A DNA stretch of 64,000 nt from sequence record MN882349.1. One strand, written 5' to 3'. Positions 32,743-61,546 of this stretch are shown here, in pieces (within the stretch, counting starts at the first letter, position 1; each line of letters starts with the position of its first letter). Origin of the DNA: Escherichia phage Ec_Makalu_003. The notes beneath the pieces are model-generated. The model saw only the letters and a program-made list of their open reading frames with translations. It did not search any database and was not told where the DNA came from. Both the position numbers and the translations under genes were made by a program.

Positions 32743-32770
32743 GGAATCCTTCGGATTCCTTTTTCTTTTT
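32743..32770 (+). terminator. rho-independent terminator
   Basis: Hairpin GGAATCC-TTCG-GGATTCC followed by TTTTTCTTTTT. Confidence 0.7.
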
Positions 32771-32771
32771 G

Positions 32772-32779
32772 TATAAATA
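32772..32779 (+). promoter_or_regulatory. T4-type late promoter TATAAATA upstream of gene 24
   Basis: Exact TATAAATA 37 nt upstream of the ATG at 32817. Confidence 0.6.
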
Positions 32780-32816
32780 TGATATATCCATTAAGGCAAA
32801 TACAGGATTCATAAAC

Positions 32817-34058
32817 ATGACTCATATTTTTACTGAACTGTTGCGGGAATCTACTTCCTCAGTAGCTAACCAGACAGCGCGACCGCAACTATTATCATTA
32901 ACTCGCGCGGTAAACAACCTGATTTTCTCTGATCTGGTAGCAATCCAGCCAACGGATCAACCAGTATCTGCATTGTACGGACTACGTTATCTTAATCATG
33001 ATGGTCAGATGACTTTCCGAACTGCTGCAACCTACGGTGGCGCGGTTGGTGATCGCACAGAGATTGAAGAGTTTTCAAAAGAAAAATCTTATGAAGAAGG
33101 CGCACTATTCAAATCAGGCGATGTTGTATACGAAGTTGTGACCGCTGGTACAGTCGGTGAAGATGCCGCAACTCCAGAAGCTGCGATCTTTAAAGGCGTA
33201 ATGACAAACAAAATTCGTTTCTATAGCGATTGTGCATCGGTAGAATACTTTGAAGATAAAAACACCGAAATTGCGTCTACCTCTATGCAGTTTGACAAGT
33301 GGCAAGTTAATGTAGGTTCTCGTAAACTGAAAACCTCGTTCACCACTGAATTAATGCAGGATCTTGAGGCAAGCCAAATCAACTCTGAAAACTCTGTAAT
33401 TGATCTTCTGGCTACTGTTGCTTCCGAAGAGATCAACAAAGATATTATTCAGAAGTTGATCACTGTATCATCTCGCTATAAAATTAAAGGGATCACCCCT
33501 GATGGCGTACTTTCTCTCGTTAGCGTTCAGGATGCACCAACACAAGCGCGTGAACTTTACCGCTATGCTTGCGAGATGAGCAATCAAATGTTGCGGACTT
33601 CCTCCTTTGCTGGTACATACGTTTTGGCGTCTTCTCGCGTGGTTGGCCTCCTGCAATCTTCCGGTTGGATGGAAGAAACCGACAATGCTCTAAGCGAAGG
33701 TCGTCTACGTTGCGGTCTGGAAGTTTACGCAGACACGACAACACCTTTCGATTATATGCTCGTTGGTTGCAAGCACATGATCGGTGATATGGAGAGTGTC
33801 GGTTCTCTGTTCTACTCCCCATACACAGAAGCCGACGGCGCTGGCGCGTATAAGAGCGTAATTGACCCTAATAGCTTCCAGCATCATGTAGCTATTATGA
33901 ATCGTTATTCACTCTCTGTCAACCCATACACATCAAAAGTTGATCAGGAAGAACACCAGGTCATCAAGGGTGACGATTGGGGTAAAATGGCTGGACGTTC
34001 AGAAATGTCCTACATTTTAGGAATCGAACTGCCACCACTTGAGATTGACAACGCTTAA
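32817..34058 (+). CDS. 24: head vertex protein gp24
   Basis: 413 aa from ATG 32817 (MTHIFTELLRESTSS...LTRAVNNLIFSDLVAIQPTDQPVSALYG), matching the recalled T4 gp24 N-terminus; the track start 32769 is an upstream TTG that includes the promoter. Confidence 0.9.
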   Translation: MTHIFTELLRESTSSVANQTARPQLLSLTRAVNNLIFSDLVAIQPTDQPVSALYGLRYLNHDGQMTFRTAATYGGAVGDRTEIEEFSKEKSYEEGALFKSGDVVYEVVTAGTVGEDAATPEAAIFKGVMTNKIRFYSDCASVEYFEDKNTEIASTSMQFDKWQVNVGSRKLKTSFTTELMQDLEASQINSENSVIDLLATVASEEINKDIIQKLITVSSRYKIKGITPDGVLSLVSVQDAPTQARELYRYACEMSNQMLRTSSFAGTYVLASSRVVGLLQSSGWMEETDNALSEGRLRCGLEVYADTTTPFDYMLVGCKHMIGDMESVGSLFYSPYTEADGAGAYKSVIDPNSFQHHVAIMNRYSLSVNPYTSKVDQEEHQVIKGDDWGKMAGRSEMSYILGIELPPLEIDNA

Positions 34059-34646
34059 CTAAATATCTAACCAAGACAAGTCAGATCCGCCCAAGATTTT
34101 TTCGACGGCGGATCTATTTTCTTGATGATATAAGTTAAAACATGGTATCCCATGTCTACGGGCAACATAAACAGCAATTCGAGTTCCTCCCGAAACGATT
34201 CCATTAACTTCTTTCGCCCAGAATATCACACAATCTACAGGGTCATCAAGTGTCTCACCTAAGACTTGAGCAACATTTCTAGAAAACAGATTTTGCATGT
34301 ATAACGGTATAGATCGAGGATTATCATAAACGTGTTCTAATTCATCCATCGCCAGATTTTTTTGTTCTAAGGTTTGCCATGCAATCACATCATGACCGTT
34401 ATGCTTATGGTCGTAAAACTTCCAATTTGGAATGAAAATTTTTCTATAATCTGGATCGTAATACTTCATGAAAGCATTGTCCATACCGTAAGCCCCTCCA
34501 GAATGCGCTACAACGCGATTTTCTGACAATACCCTCCCAATGGTACTAGCCATTATCAAAATGTCGCTAGGCGCTTTTCTAGAGCCTATTAAAGCACATC
34601 TACGAAGTGGTTTTACTCCAAATAGATCTTGTAACTGGTCAAACAT
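34059..34646 (-). CDS. DprA/Smf-like (SLOG superfamily) Rossmann-fold protein
   Basis: 195 aa; strong SD GGAGGAAA; motifs CALIGSRKAP, VVAHSGGAYGMD, FSRNVAQVLG, IVSGGTRIAVYVARRHGIPCF resemble the DprA core. Confidence 0.6.
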   Translation of the reverse strand: MFDQLQDLFGVKPLRRCALIGSRKAPSDILIMASTIGRVLSENRVVAHSGGAYGMDNAFMKYYDPDYRKIFIPNWKFYDHKHNGHDVIAWQTLEQKNLAMDELEHVYDNPRSIPLYMQNLFSRNVAQVLGETLDDPVDCVIFWAKEVNGIVSGGTRIAVYVARRHGIPCFNLYHQENRSAVEKILGGSDLSWLDI

Positions 34647-34798
34647 AATATTTCCTCCATAGAAAGCAATATCATACTACAAGTTAATAACAAATACAAG
34701 TATCCGCGTAGCGGAAGCGAGCACAGCGAGCAATAAAACACTTCCAGTAATTGATTAATAAATGTTCGAAACAAATTTTTATTATTCTATAAGATAAG

Positions 34799-34824
34799 TC
34801 TTCGTTTTGATCATAATTTAATCA
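34799..34824. repeat. 26-bp perfect direct repeat, copy 1
   Basis: TCTTCGTTTTGATCATAATTTAATCA; identical copy at 34948-34973 within a 415-bp non-coding stretch. Confidence 0.8.
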
Positions 34825-34947
34825 TACATGTAAAAACGACACAAAAGGATATCGCTTCGCGAACTCCTACGGAGTATAACATTTGTGTTACATTATGTGG
34901 TGATTAATAATTAATCAAAGATACATTTTCTATGTTCTAAAGATCTT

Positions 34948-34973
34948 TCTTCGTTTTGATCATAATTTAATCA
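34948..34973. repeat. 26-bp perfect direct repeat, copy 2
   Basis: TCTTCGTTTTGATCATAATTTAATCA; identical to copy 1. Confidence 0.8.
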
Positions 34974-35024
34974 AACAGTATTAATATTGTCCATATGTAA
35001 ACTAAAATTATGTCAGTAATAGAT

Positions 35025-35052
35025 ACAAAAAAAGCCGCCCCGAAGGACGGCT
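35025..35052 (-). terminator. rho-independent terminator (minus strand)
   Basis: Hairpin AGCCGTCCTTCGGGGCGGCT followed by a T-run on the minus strand, downstream of the ORF at 35061-35498. Confidence 0.65.
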
Positions 35053-35060
35053 AATGTTAA

Positions 35061-35498
35061 TTATTTGTTGATAACGATCTGATTTCGGCGAATGGTGACA
35101 TTGCTCTTAGAGATGACCAGATCATCCGGCACTACGTTAGTTTTGTATGGTTGGAAGCGAACAAGCATCTGATTGCGTTTAGACCCTTCCTTAATCTTGA
35201 TTTCCATCTGGATATTGTTGCCTACGTGAGCAACCGCAATTTCACCTTTATTCTCATAGACCCACTTGCTGGTAACGTCTCCCGCAAAAGCCTTAATAAC
35301 TTGCAATGCTTCGTCGTATGCGGTAGAGCTGTGAACTTTCAGAAGGCCAGCCGTAGCAAGACGGGAGCAGGTGATCGCCGGAGATTGCCAAACATCAACA
35401 TTAATTTGCTCAATCAGAGTAACACCGCCCTGATCAACTGCTTTGAATGCTTCGAACATTGCCTTTTTCATTGCTACGTGGTTTTTACGGAATTTCAT
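35061..35498 (-). CDS. hypothetical protein
   Basis: 145 aa minus-strand ORF, last gene of a three-gene early cassette; no recognisable motif. Confidence 0.6.
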   Translation of the reverse strand: MKFRKNHVAMKKAMFEAFKAVDQGGVTLIEQINVDVWQSPAITCSRLATAGLLKVHSSTAYDEALQVIKAFAGDVTSKWVYENKGEIAVAHVGNNIQMEIKIKEGSKRNQMLVRFQPYKTNVVPDDLVISKSNVTIRRNQIVINK

Positions 35499-59591: not shown

Positions 59592-61080
59592 CGAATACCT
59601 CTTTTACTGTATTTGCAGTGGTCTTGTCGTAGCGAATACGTTTGATGATTGGGAGAAATAAAGAGAACTCCGGTTCATCTTCTTTACGTGATTTGCTGCG
59701 GATATATCCGTTGCATGTCATCTCAATGACTTTTCCGATCAGGTTATGACGGTCAGCCCATAACATTTCTCGGTCGAGTTCATTTCGACGATCGAACGGA
59801 ATTACACGTTCAATACCATCATCATCTTTTTCGGTTGTGGTGTCGGTCAATCCCGATCCGGTGTTAGTCGTCATTCGTCCGCACGCACTACGGACAGTAA
59901 AACCGCCTACCTTGTTAGGATCTTTACTATGCGGATATACATCAACAATTTCCGCGTCGAAGTCAATCACTTCTTTAAATTTAACCTGATCTTTACTGCG
60001 ACGATCTTCAAATACACCATGTAAATTTTTAAGGATAATACCTTCTAATCCCATGTTGACATAACGATGATATACTTCGCGAGCTTCATCGATATTGTTA
60101 ACTACAGTGTTTTCGATTATCTGAACACGAGGATCGTTAAGTTCTTCAACAATCTGTTTTAGTTCTTCGAATCGATCTTTATATTGCTTCGTTGCTTTCT
60201 CGTTTCCGTAATACACATCACGGTCGATAACATCCCAGACAGTGTAAACAATACATTGGGCTTCTTCTTTTGGAATAGTTCCTTTCAGTGATTTGTTGAG
60301 GATACCATTTCCGGTCTGACGGTCTGCAACAACGGATTCTTTCACTGCTTCCGCTACTGGCGTTAATGGCATTTCCTCTTCTTCAAATATCCATGATAGA
60401 GTACCATCATAAACGCTCTCAACGAAGTTCTGCGCTGGTGTTTGAGAAAGGGTAGGCATATATACCAACTCACCATCTAAAACAATTCCACGGCCTCGTA
60501 GACGCTCTAAAACAGCAAACAAATCATCCAGCCCCTGATAGGTATTACCTGAACGGGTATAGATTGCTAATGTTTCTCCGTCAATATCAGCCATACCACG
60601 AGCGCCATCGCTTTTAAGTTGTGCATACGCCGGATATTTGATATTGGCAATAGTCTTATCAGAACATGACGATGCAAGGTGGCACGGCTGCTGAGGAATC
60701 AGCTTCTTCCATACCTTGTTTGCGGTGGTAGCGGAACAACCGCATTCCAGATCACGATTCAGGACCATCATTGCAACTTTAGCATCATCTTCTGACAAGC
60801 AAGTCAGAGTATCGGTAACTAGCTGTAATGCAGCATTACCAGTTACTTGACGCGTGGCAAGTTTATTTTTAAAGACCTGTAATGCACCGGATAAAGACAA
60901 TACAGACGAATAGCGAGACGGTTTATCGTATTTCTTTACGCCAAACGTAACCTGCTTGCAATATGCCAGATAAAAGCATTCTTTCAGCGTTTCATTGCTT
61001 GCAGATTCTTTCAGGATCTTTTCTTTCAGCGATGTTTTGTCAGTGGCTGCAAGCTGATTAATGATATTAAGAATTGACAT
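59584..61080 (-). CDS. 30: ATP-dependent DNA ligase gp30
   Basis: 498 aa from ATG 61080 (track uses upstream GTG 61086); motif I KYPAYAQLKSDGARG; TGNAA, MVLNRDLECG, ANKVWKKLIPQQP match recalled T4 DNA ligase. Confidence 0.9.
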   Translation of the reverse strand: MSILNIINQLAATDKTSLKEKILKESASNETLKECFYLAYCKQVTFGVKKYDKPSRYSSVLSLSGALQVFKNKLATRQVTGNAALQLVTDTLTCLSEDDAKVAMMVLNRDLECGCSATTANKVWKKLIPQQPCHLASSCSDKTIANIKYPAYAQLKSDGARGMADIDGETLAIYTRSGNTYQGLDDLFAVLERLRGRGIVLDGELVYMPTLSQTPAQNFVESVYDGTLSWIFEEEEMPLTPVAEAVKESVVADRQTGNGILNKSLKGTIPKEEAQCIVYTVWDVIDRDVYYGNEKATKQYKDRFEELKQIVEELNDPRVQIIENTVVNNIDEAREVYHRYVNMGLEGIILKNLHGVFEDRRSKDQVKFKEVIDFDAEIVDVYPHSKDPNKVGGFTVRSACGRMTTNTGSGLTDTTTEKDDDGIERVIPFDRRNELDREMLWADRHNLIGKVIEMTCNGYIRSKSRKEDEPEFSLFLPIIKRIRYDKTTANTVKEVFDV

Positions 61081-61546
61081 TTTCACCTCGTTTTGTTAAA
61101 CGTTCACGAATATCATTTAGGATACTACAAAATTCCGATTCGGTCAATATGGTCTTTAACGGATCAGTTCCACCTATGCTATGACGCAATTTCTTATTTC
61201 CGGTAGCGAGCAATGCTTTACAAAAATCTGGGTTATTTCGTGCCATCGTAACAAATGCCAGATGTACCAGTCTGTAATAATGCTCACTCATTCGATGAAT
61301 CGGGCGACCCTGAAAATATAGCATGTGATTCTCTATCTTTTCAGTCCTTCCGGTTCTTTTTGCTTTGCAGCCGTGCATCAAAAAGATTTCTCTTTGTCTC
61401 TGAGGGTTCTTAAATCTTAGCCCCTGTAAAAATCCTTCTGTGCTGTTAATATCGCAACCAAATAGACGGAATGGCCTTTTATTGAAATTACTCAACTCGC
61501 CAGATGGATAAGGTCCACCCGCATAGATATCAATTTCAGAAGTCAT
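61067..61546 (-). CDS. NADAR (YbiA-like) domain protein
   Basis: 159 aa; LSNF, INSTEGFLQGLRF, AKRTGR, CKALLATGNKKL...ILNDIRERL parallel the YbiA/NADAR pattern (FSNF, TSEHYFQAQKF, GR, ALLLAT...). Confidence 0.6.
   Translation of the reverse strand: MTSEIDIYAGGPYPSGELSNFNKRPFRLFGCDINSTEGFLQGLRFKNPQRQREIFLMHGCKAKRTGRTEKIENHMLYFQGRPIHRMSEHYYRLVHLAFVTMARNNPDFCKALLATGNKKLRHSIGGTDPLKTILTESEFCSILNDIRERLTKRGENVNS

What the first reader, a model, noticed from the sequence alone, without database searches (positions are those of the whole stretch)
34059..34646. DprA/SLOG-like Rossmann-fold protein between gene 24 and hoc
Where T4 carries rnlB, this phage encodes a 195-aa protein with the DprA/Smf core signature (GSR ... 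SGGAYGMD ... FSRN ... SGGTRIAVYVARRHG). DprA loads RecA on single-stranded DNA, so this could be a second recombination mediator beside UvsY; SLOG-superfamily members also process nucleotides, which is relevant to nucleotide-signalling defence systems. It has its own strong SD and a 415-bp upstream non-coding region containing direct repeats.
Basis: partly seen in the sequence, partly recalled or inferred. Interest (0 to 1): 0.6.

Follow-up and report, generated by a model that had tools for sequence, protein, structure and literature searches.

The report
Phage DprA-like SLOG protein, uncharacterised
The gene is real and encodes a small nucleotide-binding protein related to the bacterial DNA-uptake factor DprA. 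It is already annotated as such in public phage genomes. It lacks the parts DprA uses to load RecA, and it more likely helps the phage repair or protect its nucleic acids against host ADP-ribose-based defences.

Summary
A 195-aa ORF lies on the minus strand at 34059..34646, with all the quoted motifs, a GGAGG Shine-Dalgarno 7 nt upstream, and a 414-bp spacer holding two 77-nt direct repeats.

The window is a Krischvirus (RB49/JSE/Phi1 type). The protein is 100% identical to that of RB49 and JSE. RefSeq already calls it 'DprA-like DNA recombination-mediator protein' (PHROG 768).

The family is large, with 1450 phage records and 4319 clusters at 50% identity. Members are repeatedly fused or adjacent to NADAR, and adjacent to Macro and NAD-salvage genes. 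One member is fused to DUF4326 and one to RecJ. In several T4-like genera the gene overlaps the end of RNA ligase 2, which Krischvirus has lost.

The best reading is an accessory nucleic-acid-binding partner in ADP-ribose counter-defence and repair. The function has not been tested. The kind is known and interest is modest.

The parts
34059..34646 (-). CDS of 195 aa: single-domain SLOG / DprA-like protein (Phi1 ORF164 orthologue, PHROG 768).
34654..34658 (-). Shine-Dalgarno GGAGG, 7 nt upstream of the ATG.
   Evidence: Read directly from the sequence.
34671..34699 (-). Weak sigma-70-like promoter candidate TTGTAT-17-TATGAT, just upstream of the SD. Inferred only.
   Evidence: Relaxed scan, 8 of 12 matches. 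Not reported by the stricter scan.
34784..34813 (-). Weak sigma-70-like promoter candidate TGATCA-18-TAGAAT, inside repeat copy 1. Inferred only.
   Evidence: No TATAAATA late promoter on this strand anywhere in the spacer.
34752..34828 (.). Direct repeat, copy 1 (77 nt), with an internal imperfect palindrome.
34901..34977 (.). Direct repeat, copy 2 (77 nt, 73% identical to copy 1, identical 24-nt core).
35023..35052 (-). Intrinsic terminator (8-bp stem with 6 G-C pairs, then a T-run) that ends the upstream ORF165 transcript. The SLOG gene therefore needs its own promoter.
   Evidence: sequence.
61070..61546 (-). gp30.3 / NADAR (AdfN homologue). It is a separate gene, but it is the likely functional partner, because other phages fuse or juxtapose NADAR with this family.
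   Evidence: tblastn 98.7% to Phi1 gp30.3. NADAR HMM at E 3e-53. Fusions and adjacency.

Best explanation
The gene encodes a stand-alone SLOG-fold protein of a large, mostly phage-borne family that branched from the DprA clade.

It keeps the DprA nucleotide pocket. The G-S-R loop (R23), the L-x-x-R-N helix (R123, N124), the SGGAxGxD loop (D56) and the GGT loop (G153-T155) line that pocket. In H. pylori DprA the same pocket takes in one flipped-out base of single-stranded DNA.

It lacks everything DprA uses to dimerise and hand DNA to RecA. It also has no LOG-type catalytic glutamate.

I therefore propose that it is a non-catalytic, or at most weakly catalytic, binder of a nucleotide moiety on single-stranded nucleic acid. 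I propose that it serves as an accessory in phage counter-defence and repair. In this role it would recognise or shield damaged single strands, in particular ADP-ribosylated ones. It would work with the enzymes that remove the adduct (NADAR/gp30.3, Macro/Tk.4) and reseal nucleic acids (RNA ligase 2 where present, DNA ligase).

It is probably expressed early from its own sigma-70-type promoter.

Shown: fold, motif conservation, absences, fusions and neighbourhoods. Inferred: the ligand, the partnership and the timing.
For: Fold and homology:
- AF2 model at pLDDT 96.1.
- Foldseek top hits are HpDprA.
- hhalign of the family against the DprA domain: 94.8% probability, E 5.6e-8.
- 96 of 137 family members give weak Pfam DprA hits. 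None hits YpsA, LOG or YAcAr.

Pocket:
- Invariant or near-invariant in 137 diverse members: G21, R23, G50, D56, R123, N124, G153, G154, T155.
- These map onto HpDprA R52, R143, N144 and G164, which contact ssDNA (PMC3950713).
- They also map onto ShosA R139 and R234, which are needed for ssDNA binding (PMC12961424).

Gene fusions among the top 150 cluster representatives:
- NADAR, five times, three of them also matching T4 gp30.3.
- DUF4326, once.
- RecJ (DHH-DHHA1-OB), once.
- Two are polyvalent proteins of about 1480 aa that also carry two other SLOG types plus NADAR.

Neighbourhoods:
- NADAR overlapping the SLOG gene by 19 nt.
- NADAR 0.56 kb downstream.
- RnlB overlapping the gene, with gp30.3 and DNA ligase within 3 kb.
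- RnlB linkage in STP4-a, KP27 and phiM7.
- Macro, NadV-like, Prs-like or NADAR genes in 15 of 80 viral loci, across several lineages whose SLOG proteins are only 35-58% identical.
- SRAP, an ssDNA abasic-site protein, upstream in 33 of 55 bacterial loci.

Precedents from the literature:
- NADAR/gp30.3 removes ADP-ribose from DNA and defeats DarTG1 (PMC11257639).

Other:
- The same phage carries stand-alone NADAR and Macro genes.
- There is no late promoter upstream of the gene.
Against: - No experiment exists for any member of this family.
- The conserved arginines and glycine loops are shared across SLOG families that bind free nucleotides, so they do not prove a nucleic-acid ligand.
- The third DprA/ShosA ssDNA arginine (Hp R170) aligns to V159 and is not conserved.
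- Adjacency to NAD-salvage genes (Prs-like plus NAPRTase-like) and the DUF4326 fusion fit a soluble ADP-ribose ligand at least as well.
- I had no genome-wide control, so the 15 of 80 enrichment is not tested statistically, and some of those loci share ancestry.
- The query protein is mildly acidic (pI 6.4), so charge gives no support.
- Only about 130 of 195 residues superpose on DprA. Residues 74-115 form a family-specific insert of unknown role.
- In this window the gene has no informative neighbour.
Confidence: 0.42

Rival explanations
1. Soluble-ligand counter-defence. The SLOG pocket binds, as a sponge or sensor, or cleaves a free ADP-ribose-derived molecule (ADPR, 2'/3'cADPR, His-ADPR and the like). 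This would blunt Thoeris-type or other NAD-based immune signalling, or feed ADPR into phage NAD reconstitution.
For: - Iyer et al. 2022 (PMC9503650) predicted exactly this for viral SLOG domains, from their fusions to Macro, NADAR and DUF4326.
- Prs-like plus NAPRTase-like genes lie next to the SLOG gene in several lineages (KP27).
- There is a DUF4326 fusion.
Against: - The LOG catalytic signature P-G-G-x-G-T-x-x-E is absent: the sequence is S-G-G-T-R-I-A, and the family has no conserved acidic residue there.
- The family is nearer to ssDNA-binding DprA and ShosA than to ThsA, YpsA or LOG.
- NADAR's demonstrated substrates are ADP-ribosylated bases in nucleic acids (abstracts).
- The RecJ fusion, the RnlB coupling and the SRAP neighbourhoods involve nucleic-acid enzymes.
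Confidence: 0.28
2. One reading: a true DprA-like recombination mediator that loads UvsX (or host RecA) on ssDNA, alongside UvsY.
For: - DprA is the closest characterised relative, and the ssDNA-binding motifs are kept.
- The phage has uvsX, uvsY, uvsW, gene 32 and genes 46/47.
- ShosA, another DprA-like protein, binds RecA.
Against: - No SAM domain.
- No counterpart of the C-terminal dimer and RecA interface.
- Below the curated DprA thresholds.
- Among the fusions and neighbourhoods examined, none involved a recombinase. The partners were NADAR, Macro, NAD salvage, ligases and RecJ.
- UvsY already fills this role in T4-type phages (established knowledge).
Confidence: 0.08
3. Orphan antitoxin mimic. 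The phage supplies a stable DprA-like protein that stands in for the labile ShosA or PsyrA antitoxin when host protein synthesis is shut off. This would disarm the ShosTA or PsyrTA defences.
For: - Weak PADLOC hits to PsyrA (E 4e-5) and ShosA (E 3.5e-4).
- ShosA is unstable and acts without binding its toxin (PMC11961720, PMC12961424).
- T4 gp30.3 shows that phages carry orphan antitoxin-like enzymes.
Against: - The PADLOC hits cover only about 45 N-terminal residues, the shared GSR and SGG motifs.
- ShosA needs its SAM domain, dimerisation and RecA binding, and the phage protein has no counterpart for any of these.
Confidence: 0.07
4. RNA-repair accessory of RNA ligase 2. The protein binds broken or modified RNA ends for Rnl2, and in Krischvirus it is a leftover after the loss of rnlB.
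For: - Overlap consistent with translational coupling to rnlB in STP4-a and vB_Mm5, and linkage in KP27, phiM7, Merlin and ZX13.
- The Krischvirus gene sits at the same map position, but rnlB is gone.
Against: - No Rnl2 in any of 80 viral loci carrying the family.
- The gene is kept intact at 95-100% identity in 58 Krischvirus records that lack rnlB. It is also kept in relatives of 50-57% identity with the same rnlB-less layout. It therefore works without Rnl2.
Confidence: 0.08

Closest known systems
Bacterial DprA/Smf (Pfam PF02481; H. pylori 4LJK/4LJR, S. pneumoniae 3UQZ, R. palustris 3MAJ)
   Same: - Rossmann/SLOG core with the same strand order.
- G-S-R loop, SGxAxGxD loop, (Y)P after strand 3, [FLY]-x-x-R-N helix and SG[SG][ST] loop all align.
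   Different: - Only about 20% identical.
- 130 of 195 residues superpose.
- Below the Pfam and TIGRFAM thresholds.
- No SAM or winged-helix domains, and no C-terminal dimer and RecA interface.
- A 9-residue insertion between the RN helix and the GGT loop, and a 40-residue insert at residues 74-115.
- Found in lytic phages, not in competence loci.
ShosA, the DprA-like antitoxin of the ShosTA defence system (8ZVA, 9VZO)
   Same: - A DprA-type domain used in phage-host conflict rather than in transformation.
- The ssDNA-binding arginines R139 and R234 correspond to R23 and R123.
   Different: - ShosA has a SAM domain and an extra C-terminal helix, dimerises and binds RecA.
- It is host-encoded and paired with a PRTase toxin.
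Viral SLOG domains surveyed by Iyer, Burroughs, Anantharaman and Aravind 2022 (PMC9503650)
   Same: - Phage-borne and usually stand-alone.
- Fused to NADAR and DUF4326 and adjacent to Macro (that survey also reports fusions to Macro), and present in polyvalent proteins.
- Co-occur with NADAR and Macro in the same genomes.
   Different: - That survey places most viral SLOG domains in the YpsA-like clade and predicts soluble ADPr ligands.
- This family is closest to DprA and gives no YpsA or YAcAr hits.
LOG / 'lysine decarboxylase-like' phosphoribohydrolases (PF03641; 5WQ3, 1WEK)
   Same: - SLOG fold.
- A conserved Arg and a GGT-type loop in equivalent positions.
   Different: - No P-G-G-x-G-T-x-x-E motif and no catalytic Glu.
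- No Pfam hit.
DruSM1 ORF83, an anti-AVAST type III 'Smf/DprA' protein (bioRxiv 10.1101/2024.04.14.589459; EVADES preprint 10.1101/2025.06.06.658234)
   Same: A small phage SLOG protein annotated as DprA/Smf, with a counter-defence phenotype on deletion.
   Different: - Its likely orthologue in the related Seuratvirus CAjan (gp82, 130 aa) is a YAcAr/PF10686 SLOG protein.
- That protein is not detectably related to this family (hhalign probability 3.4%).
- The equivalence of CAjan gp82 and ORF83 is my inference.

Membership tests
SLOG superfamily (Smf/DprA-LOG Rossmannoid fold) | Three-layer alpha/beta fold with a five-stranded parallel sheet, structurally similar to several SLOG families. | tested here: met
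SLOG superfamily (Smf/DprA-LOG Rossmannoid fold) | Glycine-rich nucleotide-binding loops after strands 1 and 2 and before the last helix. | tested here: met
   G21-S-R23, S49-G-G-A-x-G-x-D56 and G153-G-T155 are invariant or nearly so in 137 members.
DprA/Smf (PF02481, TIGR00732) | Score above the curated family thresholds. | tested here: not met
   Pfam 22.3 bits against a cut-off of 29.6, matching residues 15-60 only. TIGR00732 14.4 bits against 191.
DprA/Smf (PF02481, TIGR00732) | ssDNA-binding signature motifs G-[STA]-R and [FLY]-x-x-R-[ND] (Wang et al. 2014). | tested here: met
   G21-S-R23 and L120-F-S-R123-N124 align to Hp G50-R52 and F140-N144.
DprA/Smf (PF02481, TIGR00732) | C-terminal part of the Rossmann domain that forms the dimer and the RecA-binding surface (Sp H260, Q264, E265, L269, with M238 as a further RecA contact; Hp P183, L196, F205). 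| tested here: not met
   The profile alignment ends at residue 174. Only 21 residues follow (one helix and a low-confidence tail), against about 45 in DprA. Sp M238 lies within the aligned helix (about residues 162-164, 'ARR') and is not conserved. An unrelated dimer interface cannot be excluded.
DprA/Smf (PF02481, TIGR00732) | Accessory domains: an N-terminal SAM domain and/or a C-terminal winged helix. | tested here: not met
   The 195-aa protein is the Rossmann core alone.
DprA/Smf (PF02481, TIGR00732) | Binds ssDNA and loads RecA. | not testable with these tools
   Needs EMSA or MST and RecA/UvsX interaction assays.
LOG phosphoribohydrolases (PF03641) | P-G-G-x-G-T-x-x-E motif with a catalytic Glu. 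| tested here: not met
   The sequence is V-S-G-G-T-R-I-A-V and the family consensus is GGTxTAV, with no acidic residue. No PF03641 hit in 137 members.
YpsA / YAcAr (cpYpsA) SLOG families | Profile match to PF06908 or PF10686. | tested here: not met
   0 of 137 members match. The YAcAr protein CAjan gp82 against the family gives hhalign probability 3.4%.
ShosA / PsyrA antitoxins | Full-length match, with a SAM domain plus a DprA domain, paired with a PRTase or RecQ-like toxin. | tested here: not met
   The PADLOC hits cover only residues 15-61. There is no SAM domain and no toxin gene nearby.
Phage NAD/ADP-ribose counter-defence network (Macro, NADAR, SLOG, DUF4326, NAD salvage) | Recurrent fusion or operonic linkage to NADAR, Macro, DUF4326 or NAD-salvage genes in independent lineages. 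| tested here: met
   Fusions. Adjacency. A statistical control for chance proximity was not possible.
Phage NAD/ADP-ribose counter-defence network (Macro, NADAR, SLOG, DUF4326, NAD salvage) | A demonstrated counter-defence phenotype. | not testable with these tools
   The paper searches found no published experiment on this family.

The most novel reading that the evidence does not exclude
The family is a lesion reader. Its DprA-type pocket would capture an ADP-ribosylated (or otherwise modified) base flipped out of single-stranded phage DNA or RNA and present it to NADAR or Macro hydrolases. That would make it a previously unrecognised specificity subunit of anti-DarT or anti-CmdT counter-defence. 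In some phages the subunit is fused to the hydrolase, and in Krischvirus it is encoded apart from gp30.3.
Probability: 0.2. Interest if true: 0.7.

Novelty: already known. Interest (0 to 1): 0.33.

Why it matters
The family occurs in about 3% of sequenced phages (1450 of 50,697 records). These include therapeutic candidates against Klebsiella, Pseudomonas, Acinetobacter and E. coli. None of its members has been studied.

The name it carries in databases, 'recombination mediator', is probably misleading.

If the family works with NADAR and Macro enzymes against ADP-ribosylating defences, it would add a component to a counter-defence pathway that has only just been described (T4 gp30.3/AdfN). 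It would also give a concrete role to a DprA-type domain outside natural transformation.

For this window alone, the result is a correct but already public annotation.

Tried and rejected
- **RNA element in the 414-bp spacer:** no Rfam match above noise. Folding is no better than shuffles, z -0.66.
- **Hidden small gene in the spacer:** only implausible ORFs of 23-53 aa.
- **Repeats as a dispersed motif:** the 24-nt core occurs only at this spot in the genome.
- **Conserved downstream partner protein:** the overlapping downstream ORFs in KP27, PHB05 and PAK_P5 belong to three different PHROGs. No neighbour cluster occurs in more than 10 of 80 viral loci.
- **Equating the protein with the anti-AVAST ORF83 of DruSM1:** rejected. 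The likely orthologue belongs to a different SLOG family.
- **Remnant of rnlB in the spacer or elsewhere in the genome:** none.
- **Net charge as a clue to DNA binding:** uninformative. The query has pI 6.4, the family median is 8.55, and DprA domains range from 5.8 to 9.2.
- **Locus search with the 137-sequence alignment:** Repeated with a 17-sequence subset.
- **AlphaFold-database fold search:** the library was not available.
- **Gene calls in the Sphingomonad loci:** my simple ORF caller picked antisense ORFs in that high-GC DNA. There I rely only on same-strand clusters and the in-frame check.

Full report
**What is there**

The window carries a 195-aa ORF on the minus strand at 34059..34646. 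A GGAGG lies 7 nt before the ATG.

Upstream is a 414-bp AT-rich spacer, 34647..35060, at 30% G+C against 41% for the window. It begins with a strong intrinsic terminator for the preceding ORF, at 35052..35033. It contains two 77-nt direct repeats that share an identical 24-nt core. That core is not expected by chance and is found nowhere else in the phage genome.

The spacer gave nothing else:
- It matches no Rfam family.
- It folds no better than shuffled sequence.
- It has no credible small ORF.
- It has no TATAAATA late promoter on the coding strand, only weak sigma-70-like candidates.

Gene 24 converges on the gene with no spacer. hoc lies 1.6 kb further on, with three small ORFs in between.

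**Identity of the phage and of the gene**

The DNA is 95-99.4% identical to 58 Krischvirus records, including Phi1, JSE, GEC-3S and Makalu. The protein is 100% identical to those of RB49 and JSE.

RefSeq annotates the Phi1 orthologue (ORF164) as 'DprA-like DNA recombination-mediator protein'. That is the name of PHROG 768, which the protein matches at E 1e-60.

**Fold and family**

The curated models match only weakly:

| Model | Score | Cut-off or E-value | Extent of match |
|---|---|---|---|
| Pfam DprA (PF02481) | 22.3 bits | cut-off 29.6 bits | residues 15-60 |
| TIGR00732 (dprA) | 14.4 bits | cut-off 191 bits | residues 15-57 |
| PADLOC PsyrA | 20.8 bits | E 4e-5 | residues 17-61 |
| PADLOC ShosA | 17.9 bits | E 3.5e-4 | residues 15-58 |

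A full HMMER search with a profile of close relatives found 4319 cluster representatives, nearly all stand-alone proteins of 160-220 aa. tblastn found the family in 1450 phage records across many genera.

An AlphaFold2 model built on 137 diverse members is very confident: pLDDT 96.1 and pTM 0.91. The structural neighbours are:
- Foldseek against the PDB puts H. pylori DprA first, at E 2e-5 and TM 0.55.
- Only about 130 residues superpose on any of these.

The family profile aligns to a DprA Rossmann-domain alignment with 94.8% probability, E 5.6e-8, over residues 12-174. Of the 137 members, 96 give weak Pfam DprA hits, 18 hit SLOG cluster 4, and none hits YpsA, YAcAr or LOG.

The conclusion is a distinct SLOG family whose nearest relative is DprA.

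**Residue-level test of the DprA idea**

Wang et al. 2014 (PMC3950713) define two signatures for the ssDNA-binding DprA domain: G-[STA]-R and [FLY]-x-x-R-[ND]. They show that R52, R143, N144 and G164 hold a thymine flipped into a small pocket.

Through the alignments, these residues correspond to R23, R123, N124 and G153/G154 here. All are invariant or nearly so across the family. ShosA R139 and R234, which are needed for ssDNA binding (PMC12961424), are the same two arginines. The third arginine (Hp R170, ShosA R261) aligns to V159 and is not conserved.

Three things are absent:
- **LOG signature:** P-G-G-x-G-T-x-x-E is missing. The sequence is S-G-G-T-R-I-A, with no conserved acid.
- **Dimer and RecA surface:** the alignment stops at residue 174. 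Only a short helix and a low-confidence tail follow. DprA continues for about 45 more residues. These carry the pneumococcal dimerisation and RecA-contact residues H260, Q264, E265 and L269. I recalled their positions from memory and confirmed them against the 3UQZ sequence. They also carry the H. pylori dimer residues. A further RecA-contact residue, M238, lies within the aligned helix and is not conserved.
- **Accessory domains:** there is no SAM or winged-helix domain.

The pocket is therefore DprA-like, but the machinery for loading RecA is missing.

**Context elsewhere**

Fusions among the 150 best cluster representatives:
- NADAR, five times, three of them also matching T4 gp30.3.
- DUF4326, once.
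- A complete RecJ (DHH-DHHA1-OB), once.
- An A1S_2505 phage domain, once.
- Two of the NADAR fusions are polyvalent proteins of about 1480 aa. They string this domain together with YAcAr and cluster-4 SLOG domains and NADAR.

Gene neighbourhoods with Pfam-annotated calls:
- NADAR immediately upstream, overlapping the SLOG gene by 19 nt, preceded by NAD kinase.
- NADAR 0.56 kb downstream.
- Prs-like, NAPRTase, then SLOG.
- In Morganella phage vB_Mm5: 24.3, RnlB overlapping SLOG, then gp30.3 and DNA ligase within 3 kb.

In 80 viral-contig loci, the numbers carrying each gene type within 5 kb were:

| Gene type within 5 kb | Loci (of 80) |
|---|---|
| Macro | 10 |
| NadV-like | 9 |
| Prs-like | 7 |
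| NADAR | 3 |
| At least one of these | 15 |
| Rnl2 | 0 |

These 15 loci show several different gene arrangements, and their SLOG proteins are only 35-58% identical between groups. I could not run a genome-wide control for chance proximity.

RNA ligase 2 is linked to the gene in Gelderlandvirus, Slopekvirus and Emdodecavirus, and in phages Merlin, ZX13 and vB_Mm5.

Relatives of 50-57% identity share the RB49 layout without rnlB and with a similar 330-400-bp gap. The complete Krischvirus genome has no Rnl2 homologue. It has one copy of this family, one NADAR (gp30.3; window 61070..61546) and a Macro-like Tk.4.

In bacterial genomes, a narrow pattern search found the family mainly in Sphingomonadaceae, often twice per genome. 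An SRAP (ssDNA abasic-site) gene lies upstream in 33 of 55 loci, and a pentapeptide-repeat protein lies downstream.

**Literature**

- Iyer et al. 2022 (PMC9503650) surveyed viral SLOG domains. They noted fusions to Macro, NADAR and DUF4326 and predicted that these domains sense or cleave soluble ADP-ribose derivatives.
- Since then, NADAR enzymes have been shown to remove ADP-ribose from guanine in DNA. T4 gp30.3 (AdfN) has been shown to defeat DarTG1.
- ShosA is a DprA-like antitoxin that works by binding ssDNA and RecA.
- A phage 'Smf/DprA' protein with an anti-AVAST phenotype, DruSM1 ORF83, most likely belongs to the unrelated YAcAr SLOG family. I judged this from its probable orthologue in phage CAjan.
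- I found no experimental work on the present family.

**Interpretation**

The evidence shows a DprA-derived nucleotide pocket on a minimal scaffold. That scaffold has been recruited again and again next to enzymes that act on damaged or modified nucleic acids (NADAR, Macro, RecJ, Rnl2, DNA ligase, SRAP) and next to NAD-salvage genes.

My ranking of the explanations is:

| Explanation | Confidence |
|---|---|
| Non-catalytic binder of a nucleotide moiety on single-stranded nucleic acid, assisting removal of ADP-ribose adducts and repair | 0.42 |
| Binder or hydrolase of soluble ADP-ribose-derived signals | 0.28 |
| True recombination mediator | 0.08 |
| RNA ligase 2 accessory | 0.08 |
| ShosA/PsyrA antitoxin mimic | 0.07 |

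The first two differ only in the ligand, and simple binding assays would separate them. The other three are each contradicted by a tested feature.

**Verdict**

The fold assignment is correct. The recombination-mediator reading is not supported, and the defence-related aside is the better lead.

The gene is already annotated and the kind has already been surveyed, so novelty is low. The family is nevertheless widespread, untested, and probably misnamed.

Noticed in passing
window 61070..61546 (-): Homologue of T4 gp30.3 (NADAR, the AdfN anti-DarTG1 factor), 98.7% identical to Phi1 gp30.3. In Phi1, gp30.3 lies directly beside the DNA ligase gene 30. Phi1 also has a Macro-like Tk.4 outside the window.
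   Followed up: partly
window 34752-34828 and 34901-34977: Two 77-nt direct repeats, each with an imperfect palindrome (TGATTAA...TTAATCA), unique to this spacer in the genome. They may be duplicated promoter or operator sites. No function was established.
   Followed up: partly
window 34056-34061: Gene 24 (+) and the SLOG gene (-) converge with abutting stop codons and no terminator between them. Late transcripts through gene 24 would therefore be antisense to this gene.
   Followed up: no
window 35061..35498 (-): ORF165 (145 aa, PHROG 15652, no Pfam match) keeps its place just upstream of the SLOG gene in relatives of only 50-57% identity (L151 4141-4596, L152 4246-4674). Its function is unknown.
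   Followed up: no
window 32769..34058 (+): The mechanical ORF for gene 24 starts at a TTG and gives 429 aa. The Phi1 annotation gives 413 aa, so the true start is probably the downstream ATG.
   Followed up: no
L103 4791-8807; L092-L146: In Sphingomonadaceae genomes the family occurs as a gene of about 170 aa, often twice per genome, with an SRAP gene upstream and a pentapeptide-repeat gene downstream. In one MAG the ORF continues to 1338 aa with an SbcC/Rad50 Walker B region. These may be plasmid or ICE loci, but I did not check.
   Followed up: partly
P0017, P0019 (about 1480 aa): Polyvalent proteins that carry this SLOG domain, a YAcAr SLOG, a cluster-4 SLOG and a NADAR domain in one chain. 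This implies that the three SLOG types are not redundant.
   Followed up: no
L009 45867-46259 (phage CAjan gp82): A 130-aa protein annotated 'GTP-binding domain' is a YAcAr SLOG protein. It is probably the orthologue of the anti-AVAST ORF83 of DruSM1. The 'DprA/Smf' label used for ORF83 in the literature therefore refers to a different family.
   Followed up: partly
P0094 residues 236-331: One family member is fused to an A1S_2505-family phage non-structural domain of unknown function.
   Followed up: no
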